Origin: Candidatus Obscuribacteraceae bacterium
Lineage (GTDB): Bacteria > Cyanobacteriota > Vampirovibrionia > Obscuribacterales > Obscuribacteraceae
Length of the DNA: 64,000 nucleotides
Assembly: GCA_044226015.1 (NCBI GenBank)
Contig: JBGAHS010000002.1
Span: 1,139,435-1,203,434 of the forward strand
Direction of reading: 5' to 3'
Shown: positions 42,001 to 48,000 of the stretch, in pieces
Position numbering within the stretch: position 1 is the stretch's first letter
How the letters are laid out: the number at the start of each line of letters is the position of its first letter
Position numbers: made by a program

Positions 42001-45000
42001 AATGTCGCCGCCGCACATAACCGCTATGCGGAGCTGTTCGGCGGTCCGTTCCGTTCGCACTACTGCGACCAGTGCCACGACAGCACCTCCATGTGCGTCG
42101 AAGTGCTGAGCACTAAGCGCAGCCGCAAGGTGCGCTCCCGTGCAGCAATCGGGCGGCACGACGCAAATGGTCAGGAGTACGTAATCCATCGGCTTCGCAA
42201 CTAGCACACAGCTACCTCGTTGCTGGCAGTGACCGCCGCCTCCTGGCACGGTCACCGCTGGCGACGTGGTGTGTGCCTCATGCCTCATCCCTGCGTGATG
42301 TGGTGTGTAACTCAAGCTACATCTGCTTGATGTGGCGTGCCTAATGCCGCACCTGCGTGGTGTGGTGTGCCTCAAGCCACATCCGCGTGATGTGGTGTGT
42401 GCCTTTAGCCGCAGCTCACATCTGCGCTACCAAGTGACACATCGCCACTACAGGCGGTGCGTACTGTTTATTTTTCTGAAAACACTAACCGGAGAATACG
42501 ACACGAATGTGTACAGCAATCATCGGCTTCATTATGCTTATGAGCCTGCTGGTGAGACGCCTCATCAGCGGACCTTCTAGCATGAAGCCAAAAAAACAAG
42601 CAAAGTGCCCCTTCCGCTTTCTTGCGCGGAAAGAGACCGAACCCGTCAAGCAGTCTGCGGACGGGCTTGGCTGGGAAGAGAACTTTCTCTTCGGCAGCCA
42701 CCAACACGAAGTGGCCTTCATCGACCAGGCGGCCCAGGACATCCACCGCGTCCAGCAGAACAACCGCAAGTCCGGCAAAGCTGCCTGCATCTTCCGAGCC
42801 TTCCACGCCAAGCCACTTGCGGCGATGAAGAATGCGGAACTGCACGTTGCTGAAGACATCCCCGCGGAGCTACGCGTGGGCATCCTACAGCCAGGCAAGA
42901 AGTACAGCAGCACGCTGCGCTTCTCGAACGCCGCCGGCACAATGAAATCAGACCTCGGCAAAGATCTGCGAGGCATCGCGCTGCGTGTCCACACCGAAGA
43001 GGGTGAACACGACCTACTCGCCACCAACGGGCGAGCTTCGCATGCGCGTAATGCGTGGCAATTCATCGCATTCGCACTTGCGATGTCGGGGTCAAAGTTG
43101 CTCATGCCGTTCCGGCTCATCTGGAGTGTTGGTCTTTTCGAAGCTGTCCGTATGATTCGCACGGCAAGCCGCCAGGCGTCGCGCAAGATCAACAGTGCAG
43201 CCACAGAGACCTACTTCAGCCGTGCCGCGTACGCAGTGGGCGAGCGCGCCGTGAAGTTCCAACTGACGCCTTGTGCGACTGAGGAACTGGGCATCGAGCG
43301 AACGCCAGAATACCTGCATGCCGATCTGGTTGAGCGGCTGAAGCGCGGACCTGTGGTCTTCAACCTGCAGGTTCAATACTTCAAAAACGAGACGGAAACG
43401 CCTGTCGAAGACGGCTCCGTCGAGTGGAACACTCCGCTCATCACCATCGCGCAAGTCGTGATTCCGCAACAAGACCTGTATTCTCAGGAAGCCGTTGCGG
43501 TGCAAGTCGAGGTCGACAACCTCGAGTTCAACCCCTGGAATGTAACGACGGGATTCCGTCCACTGGGCAGCCAGAACCGTGCGCGGCTCCTCGTCTACAA
43601 GGCGAGCGCAGCGTTGCGGAAAGGCGGCTCAGATTCCGGTCTTTCACAGAAAGGACAAAATTCCATGAGTCATGACGATCAGCAACGACGCTGTCCGTTC
43701 GGATTCGGCGGCAAGAATCAGCCTGACGGCACACAGCCTGACGGCAGCGAAGCGAAGATCTGGCGCCCTCGTTCGCGCCGGGTCGGCTTCAGGTTGGTCA
43801 GCTATGTGCTGCTCAACGCTTTCTACTGGGTTATGGAGACGATCAACCGCGGTCTCTCCCGTGACCCGAACCGCAAGGTGTCCTGGGACAAGTGGCCCAC
43901 GCCGCTCGGACTGATGTACCTTCTCGCAAAGATCTGGTACGTGCGCTCCAACGCCCTCACGGACCCCTACGACTATGCCACCAACGACGTGAAGGACATG
44001 GGTCCGGAACCCGAGGCGGCGAAACACGGCTACCTGCCCGACGGCAGCTGGGCGCTCGATAACGATGACCCTCAGATGGGAACACCCGGCACGCGTTTCG
44101 GCTCCAATATTCCGCCGAAGAAGGTGCGCCCTGACGTGGAGGAGATGACTCCAAGCGCTCGGGAAGCGGGCAAGCTGCGCTGGCGTCGGCTCGACGAGAA
44201 CGGCAAGGAAATCACCATTCCTGCGCTGATTCTCAGCGACCTCGCTGGCGGCTGGATTCAGTTCCAGTTCCACAACTTCGGCGGAAACACACTGCGTGAC
44301 CCCGTCACACAGTGCCCGCATCTGATGAAGCGCGACCCCAAGGACAACTGGCCGGGCAACGTTGCTCGCATCGACCGAACCACTGCGGACCCGACGCGCG
44401 TGACGGATAACGGTCGCCCCACGCCGATCAACGAGAAGACGGTAGCGTGGGTGCAGGGTCAGATCTACGGCAACAACGGCGACGAGCAGAACGCGCTGCG
44501 CTCCTTCGAGGGCGGCAAATTCGCGCTCGAAGCCGACCTGCGCCTACCGGAAGATCCGAACAAGCCGGGCATCGACCACACCGGTTTCAACAACAACTAC
44601 AACCCGCTGCTGAGCTTCTTGCACTGGCTCTTCGTGCAAGAGCACAACGCCATCGCCGACCATTACGCCTACTTCTACCCGGAGTGGGATGATGAAAAGC
44701 TTTTCCAGATGGCGCGCAAGGTCAACGTTGCGCAAATCGCCCGCATCCACACCATCCAGTGGACGGAAGACCTGCTGCAACATCCGACCCTGCAACTCGG
44801 CATGCACACTGACTGGTACGGCTTCCTCGGTCAGCGCACCAAGATGTACCTGATGCGCCTGGCGCATCGGTCGCCCTTCGTTGCTCGGCTCATCAAGCCG
44901 TTGCAAGGACAGGACGCCATCTGGGGCATGCCCGGCTCGAAGTGGGAACACCACGACGGTCCGTTCCAGGTGCCGAAGCACTTCCGGATGGTCTATCGCC

Positions 45001-48000
45001 TCCATGAGCTCATCCTCAGCGAGCGAGAAATCGTCCAGCCCGGCACAGACAAGCTGCTCGAGCGCGTGGATCTGATCAACTTCGTCCACAGCAACACGCG
45101 TCCGCTCGTCGCCAAATACGGCTACGAAACGCTCGCCTACAGCTTCGTGCGCAAGTCGTGTGGCGCTCTCACGCTGCACAACTTCCCGCGCGCGCTGACG
45201 CAGTTCGAAAACCAGCAGGACGGCGAGTTGACCGACCTGGCGGAACGGGACCTCCTTCGTGAGCGCACCGACGGCACCGGCACTTATAACGAGTTCCGGC
45301 AGTCTGTGGGTGAACCGCCCGTTACGTCCTTCCTCGAGCTGACCGGCGGCGACGCCGAGCTTGCTCGTGAGCTGGAAATCAAATACGAAGGCGACGTGGA
45401 CAAGGTGGACGCGGGCATCGGCATTCTCGCCGAACCCAAGCCTGCCGGCTTCGCGCTCGGCTTCTGCCAATTCTACCAATTCGTCCTGAATGCCCCTCGT
45501 CGAGTGAAGAGCAATCGACACCTGACGGAAGGCTTCACCTACGCCGAATACGCGGAAGGCATGGACTGGGTGGAACACGGTGGTGGCATGCTCGGTGCCA
45601 TGGCTCGGCACTTGCCGGGTCTCCGTTCACAGATGGAGGGCGTCACTCGCGCGTTCTCGCCCTGGAAGGAAACGGAAACCTTCCCGCATCGTCAATTGCA
45701 GGAAACGCACAAGGACACGGCCAACGTGTTCAAGGCGGACCTGCGCACCTTTGTTCTGGCAGTCGTTACGGCTGTCCTGGCGACCATGTCCGGCGCGATA
45801 CCCGCTTGGGTAGCGACGGGTGCGGTAGCGTGTATCACGCTCATCCCACTGGCTCTGACTGTGCGCCGTATGCTCGCCATGCGGTTCATGCAGATTTGCT
45901 GGAAGAAGTGCTACACAGACAAGCGTGGGTTCATGTTCGGAACATTGACTCGCGCCGAGAACTCCATCAACAGTGCGGCGCACTTCGGTGCTCTGCACGC
46001 GCTCGCGGTGATGGTCGGTTCGCTCGGATTGGCTGCGTTCTTTGGCTCCAGCTTCCCGCTGCTGTCTGCGCTGCTGGTTCTTGTGTCCATCAGCTCGCTC
46101 GGGGTGCGCAAGTGGTCGAAGTCTTTTGCTGCGAACGCACAGGTGCTGCGAATTGCCCTGCGTAATCGCATGCGAGACGGTCAACCGCAAATCGACCCCT
46201 GCGACATTGCAGGCAGCTCCGCCTTCGAAAAGCGGTTCTGCTTCAATCGTGAGCTGCCAGCTCGCGTTCGGGCTTCGGCGAGCAAAGACAACCATGTTTA
46301 CAGCTGCTACGGCGACGTAGACATGGAAGAATTTGAGCGCCTCTTCCGGACTTACGCACCGGGTCGCGACCACCTGACTGCCTACGACTTCAATCGCATG
46401 GCAGAACAGGAGTCGCTCTATGCCGGCAGCAACTTCATGAGCCGCTTCGTAGCTCGCTTGTCGATGCTGCGTCGTTCTCACGAAGTGCTGCACCTGTTCG
46501 GCGACACCATCGTCGAAGAGGACAAGAAGCTGGTTCCGGCAATCAGCAAGGGCATGCTGCTGAGCTTCTACCAGGGCACTGCCCAAGCTCAGCTGAAGCG
46601 GGAGCACGAAGAAGGGGACACTGACCCCAGCCCGCAGCCCCGTCAGTCCAGGTAACGAGCATCTGGATTAGGTTCAGGTAGACGAACCGGGAGAGCATTC
46701 GACGCAAGTCGGATGCTTTCCTTTTTCGACTCTTATTACTACCACTTATCATACGAAAGGGCATAGGAGAAATAGAAAAATTTCGATCTCAAGTGAATCC
46801 GCAATCATCGTGTGTTTGCTCAAACTGATCGATATCGATCAAAAACGCTGTTTTGCAATCCCCGAAACCTAGCAAATTGGCCGAAACTGATCGATATCGA
46901 TCAAAAATCCGCTTTGCAGATTTCGGAACTCAAGAGCTGAAACTCCTGACATTCACACAAAGAAAATGCCCCTTTTCATCGATCCCCAAATCCCAATAAA
47001 TTGTCGGGATTTGATCGATATCGATCAAAAACACGGTTTCGCGATCCTCGAAACCCAAAAAATTGCCCCAAAAAGATCGATATCGATCAAAATCCCGATT
47101 TGGAAGCCTGCTAAGGAGTGTTCGATGCGCGAAGAAAAACCCCAGAATCTGCTCCTGCTTGCCAACCGCAACGGTTGATATAATTTGCCATCTCATTCCA
47201 AACACTTGTTCTGGAGCTTGCCTCATGACTAGCAATACGCGACAAGAAATTCTTGACCTGGAAGAACGCCTGCGAGCAGCAGAATTAGCTCACGACCCAG
47301 AATTTTTTGAAACGTACCTGGACGACCATATGATCATGGTTTCGAAGGGTGAAGCAAGCTCGCCAAAACAGCACATTATCAAAGCCCATCAACCCGAACT
47401 AGGAACAAAATTTACCCGGGTTGTGATGACAGATATGAAAGTAATTGATCACGGCGACTCAGCTGTAGTCACCTGCAAAGGAACTTACGAGGGTCCGCGC
47501 GGCGTACAAGACTTGAAATTCATGCGAGTTTGGGTAAAAAAAACAGACGGCTGGCGAATCATCGCAGGAACAATCTCATAAAACTCGCCCCCAAGCTCAA
47601 ACTCAAGCGCACAAGCTAAACCTCCAACTATCCACTAGGCTCCTGCTCAGGCCCCCAAGCTTAAACCTCGACTCAAATCACCGCCAAAACCCACCTCCAA
47701 GCTCAAAGGAAATTTTCTGATGACACAGTGTTATAAATGCGCAGGAAACGGCAAAATCACTTGTGAAACTTGCTCCGGGTACAAACAAATAAACTGCACC
47801 AGCTGCAGTGGCACAGGCAAGTACGGCACAGACCAATGTCAGACTTGCTATGGAAACAAACGGATCCAATGCACTGTATGCGGAGGCTGGGGAAAGGTAT
47901 CGTGCCCCCAGTGTTACGGCAGTGGCAATCAACCTTAAGAGTATCTACATCAGGTTCCATTTGCGACCATGCACCCTAACAGCTGTTTATGCAACAGCTC

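What a model noticed while it worked through the whole genome (the two positions that open the first line are those of the whole stretch)
42507..46655. Catalase-like/fatty-acid dioxygenase/caleosin-like three-domain oxylipin enzyme
g00966 (1382 aa) fuses a short catalase-related heme domain, a cyclooxygenase/alpha-DOX-type heme dioxygenase and a C-terminal caleosin-like segment in one chain. This joins the dioxygenase and the catalase-type hydroperoxide-converting partner that Nostoc encodes as separate genes, a fusion type not among the described LOX-catalase or DOX-P450 enzymes.
Evidence so far: Pfam Catalase 97-190 and An_peroxidase 519-1009; the N-terminal domain is closest to the catalase-related protein 3e4w over residues 129-377 (E 1e-13, call 106) and keeps RxxHAK, Asn and RxxxY; the dioxygenase keeps YRLH. 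19 other proteins cover 96% or more of it at 52-71% identity, several labelled Obscuribacterales; single ORF in G025 and G026. Homologs P0300/P0324 hit Caleosin (E about 1e-5, call 75) in the segment that matches the C-terminus of g00966. A 2026 review states the Nostoc lyase is a separate gene (PMC13049297, call 107); call 76 found no such fusion.
(Added by a program. Inside this text positions count along the whole contig: contig position 1,139,435 is position 1 of the stretch shown here. "Call 12" and the like, gene names such as g00115 and contig names such as C1 are that model's own, and its searches are not shown. The text may have been shortened before it was handed on; [...] marks where a part breaks off. 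The agent that wrote the report below was given it as the finding of a first reader that could run no searches.)

Follow-up and report, generated by a model that had tools for sequence, protein, structure and literature searches.

The report
Alpha-dioxygenase fused to mini-catalase, caleosin remnant
This bacterial gene encodes one membrane-anchored protein that joins a plant-type enzyme for adding oxygen to fatty acids to a small catalase-like heme domain that probably disposes of the unstable product, while its third, caleosin-derived part has lost the residues that make caleosins enzymes.

Summary
The ORF (42507-46655+, 1382 aa) and its three homology regions are real; an independent run holds it unbroken. 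The interpretation needs correcting. (1) The dioxygenase is alpha-DOX type: best matches are rice/Arabidopsis alpha-DOX, with His311/Tyr379/Arg559 equivalents; 23% to a Nostoc-type 10S-DOX orthologue. (2) The catalase-like domain keeps its heme residues but has Phe-His, not the Thr-His of coral/Nostoc-type partners (0 of 142 fused domains have Thr); nearest structure is mini-catalase 3e4w. (3) The caleosin segment is homologous but dead: both histidines, EF-hand and 65 central residues are gone. So two heme enzymes plus a scaffold, not three. Catalase+alpha-DOX fusions are common in databases; the catalase sits N-terminal, C-terminal or as a separate upstream gene, and the linker keeps an old ribosome-binding site and ATG. 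Best reading: alpha-DOX makes 2-hydroperoxy fatty acid; the mini-catalase consumes it, probably to 2-hydroxy acid. Not found in ten paper searches. The scan noted both pairwise fusions before on other DNA. Activity untested.

The parts
42507..46655 (+). Whole gene, 1382 aa: anchor - mini-catalase - linker - alpha-dioxygenase - four-helix membrane segment - caleosin remnant
   Evidence: unbroken in independent run X2; GGAG 12 nt upstream of the ATG
42507..42569 (+). N-terminal hydrophobic segment (aa 1-21) followed by basic residues; likely membrane anchor
   Evidence: Kyte-Doolittle peak 1.97; a similar segment, judged by eye, in 17 of 17 three-part proteins printed, absent from two-domain P0121; role inferred
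42660..43628 (+). Mini-catalase (catalase-fold heme) domain, aa 52-374: R97, distal H100 preceded by F99, N174, R360, proximal Y364
   Evidence: AF2 pLDDT 93.7; nearest 3e4w Z 29.3, coral AOS 1u5u Z 26.4, true catalases 24.4-25.5; all five residues in 112 of 142 fused domains, Thr before His in 0 of 142
43629..43763 (+). Linker (aa 375-419) holding a relic or active internal start: AAGGA at 43651-43655, in-frame ATG at 43665 (M387), then a CPF motif
   Evidence: only 1 of 36 internal in-frame ATGs has such a motif; the split DOX genes of genus g19 start with the same signal, 5 of 5 printed; Met kept in 5 of 9 fused genes, lost in 4
43764..45671 (+). Alpha-dioxygenase heme domain, aa 420-1055: Q585/H589 distal, H748 (rice His311), Y830 (Tyr379), H833 proximal, R999 (Arg559)
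   Evidence: phmmer 4kvj E 2.5e-59 against COX 1.7e-8; Y830 aligns to the residue that is Phe in the Y379F entry 4kvl; H748, Y830, H833, R999 invariant and Q585, H589 at least 90% in 38 rows; Foldseek TM by target 0.82-0.85 to alpha-DOX, about 0.61 to COX
45672..46175 (+). Four long helices (aa 1056-1223), two hairpins with hydrophobic tips; likely membrane or lipid-droplet anchor
   Evidence: AF2 model of aa 420-1382, pTM 0.89; hydropathy peaks 1079-1125 and 1160-1201; present in nearly all family members; no Atlas hit
46182..46622 (+). Caleosin remnant, aa 1226-1372: only the C-half is left; first His column is R1243, about 65 residues (EF-hand and hydrophobic hairpin region) are missing between aa 1244 and 1245 (window 46238/46239), second His column is A1258
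   Evidence: the model's low-confidence stretch (aa 1249-1261) lies at the scar

Best explanation
A membrane-bound, two-heme fatty-acid alpha-oxidation enzyme. Step 1 (strongly supported by sequence and model, activity not measured): peroxide-primed heme makes the Tyr830 radical, His748 and Arg999 hold the carboxylate, and O2 is added at C2 to give a 2(R)-hydroperoxy fatty acid. Step 2 (inferred): the tethered Tyr-ligated mini-catalase takes this short-lived hydroperoxide before it decarboxylates to the C(n-1) aldehyde and acts on it as a peroxidase, giving mainly the 2-hydroxy acid, the job that caleosin CLO3 does beside alpha-DOX1 on plant oil bodies. Step 3 (loss shown, role inferred): the caleosin-derived tail has no catalytic residues and, with the four-helix segment and the N-terminal anchor, serves as a membrane or lipid-droplet scaffold. 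History (inferred): an older alpha-DOX - hairpin - caleosin fusion lost the caleosin histidines; in Obscuribacterales-like bacteria a mini-catalase related to those of the common two-domain catalase+alpha-DOX fusions became linked to it as an upstream gene, an N-terminal fusion or a C-terminal fusion; this gene arose from the operon form by loss of the stop codon.
For: Alpha-DOX identity; all three signature motifs in 22 of 22 three-part proteins; chemistry from PMC8720084 and PMC9305512. Intact catalase heme site. Recurrent linkage: of 22 genomes with a match among 107 of the order, 9 have the N-terminal fusion (one cut by a contig end), 1 a C-terminal fusion, 5 the same catalase as an adjacent upstream gene, 1 a more distant catalase-like gene upstream, 2 the catalase fused to a different alpha-DOX. 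C-terminal fusions fall at three separate places of the DOX tree. The two-domain fusion occurs in Streptomyces, Mesorhizobium, Actinocorallia and an oxygenic-class cyanobacterium, G138. The genome has its own large catalase (746-codon frame on C5). Nearest structure 3e4w is titled a peroxidase in the reference seen (its organic-hydroperoxide preference is recalled, paper not held). Caleosin decay series. Plant precedent: PMC13543774.
Against: No activity or product data. [quoted passage not shown] A peroxidase needs an electron donor and none is conserved nearby. Replacement of caleosin by catalase is not shown: 104 of 126 DOX+caleosin proteins have no fused catalase, most Elusimicrobiota loci show none within up to 6 kb, and the raw link between catalase fusion and the central deletion (21 of 22 fused against 24 of 104 unfused, without P0002) vanishes in independent pairs (median p 1). 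No fusion with a fully intact caleosin was found (first His in 4 of 126, second in 1, both in 0; 1 and 0 of 11). The DOX domain is only 26-27% identical to plant alpha-DOX and sits in its own clade, apart from the cyanobacterial stand-alone alpha-DOX-like proteins.
Confidence: 0.45

Rival explanations
1. Peroxide-tone control: the mini-catalase does not touch the 2-hydroperoxy acid as a pathway step but removes H2O2 or stray organic peroxides around an alpha-DOX that needs peroxide to start; the useful product is the spontaneous C(n-1) aldehyde (alpha-oxidation of branched or awkward fatty acids).
For: alpha-DOX is primed by H2O2 and its product decarboxylates without an enzyme (PMC9305512); no Thr-His; stand-alone alpha-DOX-like genes of about 600 aa exist without a fused catalase (G275, G223, G239); the window holds fatty-acid catabolic genes 3-13 kb away.
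Against: A general scavenger need not be fused at either end so often; the genome has another catalase; no conserved aldehyde dehydrogenase neighbour (1 of the 82 neighbour ORFs scanned).
Confidence: 0.2
2. The Phe-His mini-catalase converts the 2-hydroperoxide without an outside reductant, as a dehydratase, lyase or isomerase (2-oxo acid, catalysed decarboxylation, or a new oxylipin), in the manner of coral AOS/HPL.
For: Second-nearest structure is coral AOS (Z 26.4); every characterised catalase-fold partner of a fatty-acid dioxygenase in the papers read is a rearranging or cleaving enzyme; no reductant-supplying neighbour; Phe is kept in 125 of 142 domains, which suggests a specific pocket.
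Against: Those enzymes have Thr-His and act on allylic mid-chain hydroperoxides; a C2 hydroperoxide of a saturated acid offers no allylic chemistry (own knowledge).
Confidence: 0.17
3. The dioxygenase has drifted to another substrate or position (for example a membrane lipid or a branched or modified acid delivered through the hairpin and caleosin scaffold), so the pair makes a product unrelated to classic alpha-oxidation.
For: Own strongly supported clade on a long stem (71 rows, SH-aLRT 100); half the bit score to rice alpha-DOX of a cyanobacterial stand-alone protein (204 against 402 bits); obligate extra 300-aa module.
Against: His311, Tyr379 and Arg559 equivalents that fix the free carboxylate are invariant.
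Confidence: 0.12
4. One reading: a Nostoc-type 10S-dioxygenase, hydroperoxide lyase and active caleosin peroxygenase in one chain.
For: All three homologies are real.
Against: Dioxygenase 23% to the 10S-DOX orthologue, catalase 22-25% to its Thr-His partner; caleosin histidines, EF-hand and hairpin absent.
Confidence: 0.03

Closest known systems
Plant alpha-dioxygenases (rice 4kvj/4kvl, Arabidopsis 4hhr/4hhs) and cyanobacterial CsDOX, CalDOX, LepDOX (PMC8720084, PMC9305512)
   Same: Fold (TM 0.82-0.85 by target); catalytic Tyr, both heme His, His311 and Arg559 equivalents.
   Different: 26-27% identity; separate clade; fused to a mini-catalase, a four-helix segment and a caleosin remnant. The characterised enzymes are stand-alone in the passages read.
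Nostoc punctiforme 10S-DOX plus catalase-related hydroperoxide lyase (PMC13049297, PMC9579011; primary paper not held)
   Same: A peroxidase-cyclooxygenase-family dioxygenase linked to a short catalase-fold protein.
   Different: Other subfamily on both sides: COX-like 546-aa DOX without the alpha-DOX carboxylate motifs; partner has Thr-His; separate genes, catalase downstream, in G329 and G355.
Coral AOS-LOX and HPL-LOX, Anabaena and Acaryochloris catalase-LOX fusions (PMC5617202, PMC11719350)
   Same: N-terminal short catalase-fold domain fused to a fatty-acid dioxygenase; same heme Arg, His, Asn, Tyr set.
   Different: The dioxygenase is a non-heme lipoxygenase; Thr66-His67 against Phe99-His100; 20% identity to 1u5u.
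Mini-catalase MAP-2744c (PDB 3e4w/3e4y)
   Same: Nearest solved structure of aa 50-378 (Z 29.3, rmsd 2.8, 279 aligned, 27%); also lacks Thr before the His (Leu).
   Different: Stand-alone protein; ours is fused and membrane-anchored. Its peroxidase properties are recalled, apart from the title.
Arabidopsis alpha-DOX1 plus caleosin CLO3/RD20 on lipid droplets (PMC13543774)
   Same: The same two protein families, here in one chain in bacteria.
   Different: The plant caleosin is an active peroxygenase on a separate chain; the bacterial domain has lost the catalytic features, most completely in this gene.
Uncharacterised two-domain catalase + An_peroxidase proteins (P0121 type; Streptomyces, Mesorhizobium and others)
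   Same: Same Phe-His catalase clade (50% to ours) on an alpha-DOX-like domain.
   Different: Different DOX clade (37%); no hairpin or caleosin part; about 950 aa. Database entries only; no paper found.

Membership tests
Fatty-acid alpha-dioxygenase | Catalytic Tyr and proximal His (rice Tyr379/His382) | tested here: met
   Y830, H833; Y830 aligns to the Phe of the Y379F entry 4kvl; invariant in 38 rows
Fatty-acid alpha-dioxygenase | Distal Gln/His | tested here: met
   Q585, H589; at least 90% conserved
Fatty-acid alpha-dioxygenase | His311 and Arg559 (named in a reference title in PMC8720084) | tested here: met
   H748 and R999; mapped by hand on the 4kvj alignment with the offset of 3 given by Y379F; invariant
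Fatty-acid alpha-dioxygenase | Fold closer to alpha-DOX than to COX or peroxidases | tested here: met
   Foldseek E 1e-31 for four alpha-DOX entries against 7e-18 for the next and about 1e-15 for COX
Fatty-acid alpha-dioxygenase | 2(R)-oxygenation of free fatty acids | not testable with these tools
   needs enzyme assay
Nostoc-type 10S-DOX | Orthology to 10S-DOX and its substrate-recognition motifs (PMC13049297, Table 2) | tested here: not met
   23% local identity to an orthologue identified by matching residue numbers; the orthologue lacks HTxxW and APRR/ASRR, which this protein has. My strict patterns for the 10S motifs missed the orthologue too, so they are not counted.
Catalase-related AOS/HPL (fatty-acid hydroperoxide converters) | Short catalase fold with heme Arg, distal His/Asn, proximal Tyr | tested here: met
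Catalase-related AOS/HPL (fatty-acid hydroperoxide converters) | Thr immediately before the distal His | tested here: not met
   F99; Thr in 0 of 142 fused domains; the control partner of the 10S-DOX orthologue has Thr-His
Catalase-related AOS/HPL (fatty-acid hydroperoxide converters) | Genetic linkage to a fatty-acid dioxygenase | tested here: met
   fused or adjacent
Catalase-related AOS/HPL (fatty-acid hydroperoxide converters) | Conversion of a fatty-acid hydroperoxide | not testable with these tools
   needs enzyme assay
Typical monofunctional catalase | Full-length subunit of about 480 aa or more | tested here: not met
   domain is about 325 aa; catalase chains matched are 465-750 aa; NCBIfam HPII score 15 against cut-off 1102
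Caleosin/peroxygenase (PMC5957377) | Homology to caleosins | tested here: met
   37.5 bits against shuffle maximum 4.6; the only outside hits of the family profile are Pfam caleosins
Caleosin/peroxygenase (PMC5957377) | Two invariant heme histidines | tested here: not met
   R1243 and A1258; both kept in 0 of 126 DOX fusions
Caleosin/peroxygenase (PMC5957377) | Calcium-binding EF-hand | tested here: not met
   inside the 65-residue deletion; pattern absent in 126 of 126 fusions
Caleosin/peroxygenase (PMC5957377) | Central lipid-binding segment | tested here: not met
   deleted here; present in 81 of 126 relatives

The most novel reading that the evidence does not exclude
A new class of catalase-fold oxylipin enzyme (Phe-His type) that captures the short-lived 2-hydroperoxy fatty acid and turns it into a defined product, carried on a bacterial alpha-DOX - caleosin fusion that is the prokaryotic counterpart, perhaps the forerunner, of the plant oil-body alpha-DOX1/CLO3 pair; here the catalase has taken over from the decayed caleosin, and the gene makes both a long and a short protein from two starts.
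Probability: 0.22. Interest if true: 0.82.

Novelty: new variant of a known kind. Interest (0 to 1): 0.57.

Why it matters
Alpha-dioxygenase products decay on their own to aldehydes, and no dedicated bacterial partner enzyme appears in the papers read. A large, untested family that tethers a Phe-His mini-catalase to alpha-DOX, with members in culturable Streptomyces, makes the fate of 2-hydroperoxy fatty acids directly testable and tests whether Thr-His is really needed for reaction with fatty-acid hydroperoxides. It could give a one-chain route to 2-hydroxy acids or cleaner aldehyde biocatalysts. The caleosin series (stand-alone with both His, fused with one His, fused with none, centrally deleted) links alpha-DOX and caleosin in bacteria, a pair known to cooperate in plant defence. 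If the catalase only scavenges peroxide, the finding shrinks to a domain-architecture note.

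Tried and rejected
Complex prediction of the catalase and DOX domains: no verdict, score 0.00; no evidence either way. No RNA holder listed; X11 covered only about 300 nt and is probably DNA. PDB search with the caleosin-like profile: nothing below E 1. Atlas: no usable hit for aa 1056-1382. NCBIfam: no family over cut-off for 7 proteins. Conserved operon partner: none in 46 loci plus the window's central 30 kb clustered (much of that output is shadow ORFs) or in 82 neighbour ORFs scanned (80 of the 149 picked plus two paralogue frames, chosen by length and nearness). 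Co-evolution of catalase fusion and caleosin deletion: strong raw count, not significant in independent pairs; rejected as evidence. Search for an alpha-DOX fused to an intact caleosin: 11 hits among 8000 scored candidates, none with both His; weak evidence of absence. Caleosin call for the tail of the C4 paralogue: 11.4 bits against shuffle maximum 10.0, inconclusive. Promoter scan: 0 sites; terminator-like 9 against 4.6 expected, none after the stop. Own errors: the long/short labels in the row names are wrong and were ignored; the second-His column was off by one and was redone; the script stopped before printing the last split locus. Trees used 99 of 304 DOX rows and 77 of 213 catalase rows after dereplication, quick method without the mixture model; counts hold duplicates, so one search is quoted. 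Three primary papers were not held; the search for MAP-2744c was swamped by unrelated papers.

Full report
OBSERVATION. The window holds one ORF at 42507-46655 (+), 1382 aa. Pfam gives Catalase 97-190 (E 6.2e-9), An_peroxidase 519-1009 (E 8e-50) and a sub-threshold Caleosin match at 1256-1303 (E 0.051). 19 of the 119 other proteins listed cover at least 95.5% of it at 52-71% identity. Run X2, from another study than the possible source X1, holds 42300-46800 in one contig with 10 substitutions and no gaps, so the fusion is not an assembly error.

THE DIOXYGENASE IS AN ALPHA-DOX. The best PDB matches are rice and Arabidopsis alpha-DOX (aa 457-1054, E 2.5e-59; COX only 1.7e-8). Y830 aligns with the position that is Phe in the Y379F entry 4kvl; counting on the same alignment puts H748 at His311 and R999 at Arg559, the residues named in a reference title in PMC8720084. 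H748, Y830, H833 and R999 are invariant and Q585/H589 at least 90% conserved in 38 rows. An AF2 model of aa 420-1382 (pTM 0.89) matches alpha-DOX at TM 0.82-0.85 and COX at about 0.61. As a control I looked for the Nostoc system itself in 13 cyanobacterial genomes: G329 and G355 carry a 546-aa protein; in G329 the residues Y305, T310, Y342, I483, A487 and Q490 match the numbering printed for 10S-DOX in PMC13049297. It is 23% identical to our domain over a local match, lacks the His311 and Arg559 motifs, and is followed by a separate catalase-related gene with Thr-His that is 22-25% identical to ours. So this gene is not the Nostoc pair fused. Against over-confidence: identity to plant alpha-DOX is 26-27%, half the bit score of a stand-alone cyanobacterial protein, and the domain sits in its own clade (71 of 99 rows, SH-aLRT 100).

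THE CATALASE-LIKE DOMAIN. aa 50-378 fold with pLDDT 93.7; nearest structures are 3e4w (Z 29.3), coral AOS 1u5u (26.4) and true catalases (24.4-25.5). R97, H100, N174, R360 and Y364 are all present, and all five in 112 of 142 domains fused to a DOX. The residue before the distal His is Phe in 125, Ser in 11, Leu in 4, Val in 2 and Thr in 0 of 142. [quoted passage not shown] The domain therefore looks like a working heme enzyme but fails membership of the AOS/HPL group; 3e4w, with Leu there, is titled a peroxidase (its preference for organic hydroperoxides is recalled).

THE CALEOSIN PART IS A REMNANT. A profile of the C-terminal domain (20 long relatives plus this protein) found 53 proteins among 1.84 billion representatives; the only ones outside the family are stand-alone caleosins (7 scanned, Pfam E 1e-16 to 1e-40). 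In reverse, aa 1259-1365 score 37.5 bits against those seven, against at most 4.6 in 300 shuffles, and cover only the C-half of the profile. PMC5957377 defines the family by an EF-hand, a lipid-binding segment and two invariant histidines. The alignment shows a series: stand-alone proteins with both His and mostly an EF-hand; fusions that keep the first His (4 of 126) or the second (1 of 126), none both and none an EF-hand pattern; the majority with Arg at the first site; and forms such as this one in which about 65 central residues are gone (45 of 126). A search for long proteins with a caleosin domain returned 11, all An_peroxidase fusions, none with both His. Between DOX and remnant lie four long helices (aa 1056-1223) with hydrophobic tips; two proteins carry helices plus caleosin-like domain without any DOX (P0143, P0180), so this is a module of its own.

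DISTRIBUTION AND HISTORY. The core DOX - helices - caleosin-like unit occurs in records titled Obscuribacterales, Melainabacteria, Elusimicrobiota, Planctomycetota and Xanthobacteraceae. Of 107 genomes of the order, 22 match: 9 N-terminal fusions (one cut by a contig end), 1 C-terminal, 5 with the catalase as the adjacent upstream gene (all genus g19), 1 with a more distant catalase-like gene upstream, 1 core without catalase in the short flanks, 2 with the catalase on a different alpha-DOX, 3 with only a lone catalase-like gene or another paralogue. The two-domain catalase + An_peroxidase fusion is common: 394 hits among 8000 scored candidates, 120 seen, all with An_peroxidase, including named Streptomyces and Mesorhizobium proteins, and 1 of 300 other genomes of the phylum (G138). 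Our catalase falls in one clade with theirs (60 of 77 rows, SH-aLRT 96) while the DOX domains do not group, which fits recruitment of the catalase module. The linker keeps AAGGA at 43651-43655 and an in-frame ATG at 43665, the only such signal among 36 internal ATGs; the five split genes printed start with the same signal, and 5 of 9 fused genes keep the Met. That points to fusion from an operon and perhaps to a second, 996-aa product; the split g19 genes nest among fused ones in both trees, so later splitting or repeated fusion cannot be told apart. Fused catalase goes with the central caleosin deletion in 21 of 22 proteins against 24 of 104 (P0002 removed), but independent pairs give no support. 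Neighbours are not conserved.

MECHANISM. Alpha-DOX uses a peroxide-generated Tyr radical to form the (R)-2-hydroperoxy acid, which decarboxylates on its own to the C(n-1) aldehyde or ends as the 2-hydroxy acid (PMC8720084, PMC9305512). In Arabidopsis, alpha-DOX1 and caleosin CLO3 cooperate on lipid droplets to make 2-HOT (PMC13543774). Shown here: an alpha-DOX site, an intact catalase-type heme site, repeated linkage of the two, and a catalytically stripped caleosin. Inferred: that the mini-catalase consumes the 2-hydroperoxide, most simply by reduction to the 2-hydroxy acid (0.45).

LITERATURE. Ten searches (listings and abstract starts only) showed no description of an alpha-DOX fused to a catalase-like or caleosin domain. 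Passages read: PMC13049297, PMC8720084 (part 2 of 7 and passages; 21, 69), PMC9305512, PMC5617202, PMC10813956, PMC9807586, PMC5957377, PMC11719350, PMC4420034, PMC9579011, PMC13543774, one reference line of PMC10921427. [quoted passage not shown] Brash 2014, Mashhadi 2016 and Pakhomova 2009 were not held, no supplement was read (that of PMC8720084 lists its alpha-DOX tree and may hold fused members), and most subscription papers are outside the library. Two earlier notes of this scan on other genomes reach the same two pairwise readings; I had stated my reading before seeing them, and they are not independent support.

VERDICT. Observation confirmed, interpretation partly supported. A new variant of a known kind (dioxygenase plus tethered hydroperoxide-handling heme domain), undescribed as far as searched, common in its two-domain form, with two likely active sites rather than three. 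Interest 0.57.

Noticed in passing
G000:C4:142284-144983 (L002:223-2922 +; L102:5291-7984 +): A second An_peroxidase protein of about 890 aa in the same genome, from another clade, with His311/Arg559-like motifs, an altered Tyr-His spacing and an EF-hand-like tail that resembles a caleosin N-half by eye; profile score not above shuffles. It lies beside a chlorite dismutase-family gene and cytochrome b/bd genes; relatives occur in G063, G064, G065.
   Followed up: partly
P0024 aa 1010-1155; also P0039, P0046, P0112: Some catalase-less family members end in an unnamed domain of about 150 aa instead; Atlas hits at 0.93 are hypothetical proteins, nearest named DUF4334/GXWXG at 0.85. Possibly another product-handling module.
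   Followed up: partly
P0143, P0180: Signal-like N-terminus, Ala/Pro-rich linker, four-helix segment and caleosin-like domain with the first His kept, but no dioxygenase.
   Followed up: partly
window 30000-39000 and 40500-46500: GC 54-61% against 47.5% for the contig; the gene (60%) is in the top 3% of 1435 long ORFs. The stretch holds acyl-CoA dehydrogenase, AMP-binding, enoyl-CoA hydratase, two acyltransferase and patatin genes; another acyltransferase-patatin pair lies at 54533-56503.
   Followed up: partly
window 39783-40213 and 46826-47102: Arrays of 116-nt and about 62-nt repeats, each with a palindromic ATCGATATCGAT core, on both sides of the block that holds the gene; the 12-mer occurs 29 times in 13 clusters genome-wide, naive expectation 0.5.
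   Followed up: partly
window 42259-42416: Imperfect tandem repeats of about 30 nt just upstream of the gene; the core 11-mer occurs only 3 times in the genome.
   Followed up: partly
G000:C6:828852-829832 (L003); L012:4092-5198: A stand-alone mini-catalase of another clade (Val-His) in this genome; in G080 a member of that clade sits directly upstream of a DOX-helices-caleosin gene, which looks like a separate recruitment.
   Followed up: partly
aa 34-36 and 397-399 of the gene: Cys-Pro-Phe motifs precede both heme domains, and Cys-Pro motifs recur at the N-termini of many relatives; a resemblance to heme-regulatory motifs is recalled, untested.
   Followed up: no
L063, L064, L065: Family genes broken into several frames in three genome bins, probably sequencing errors or decay; left as they are.
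   Followed up: no
L060 (record titled Planktothrix sp.): Same frame length and domain positions as L017 of G019, which is placed in the window's own family; the record title may be a mislabel.
   Followed up: no
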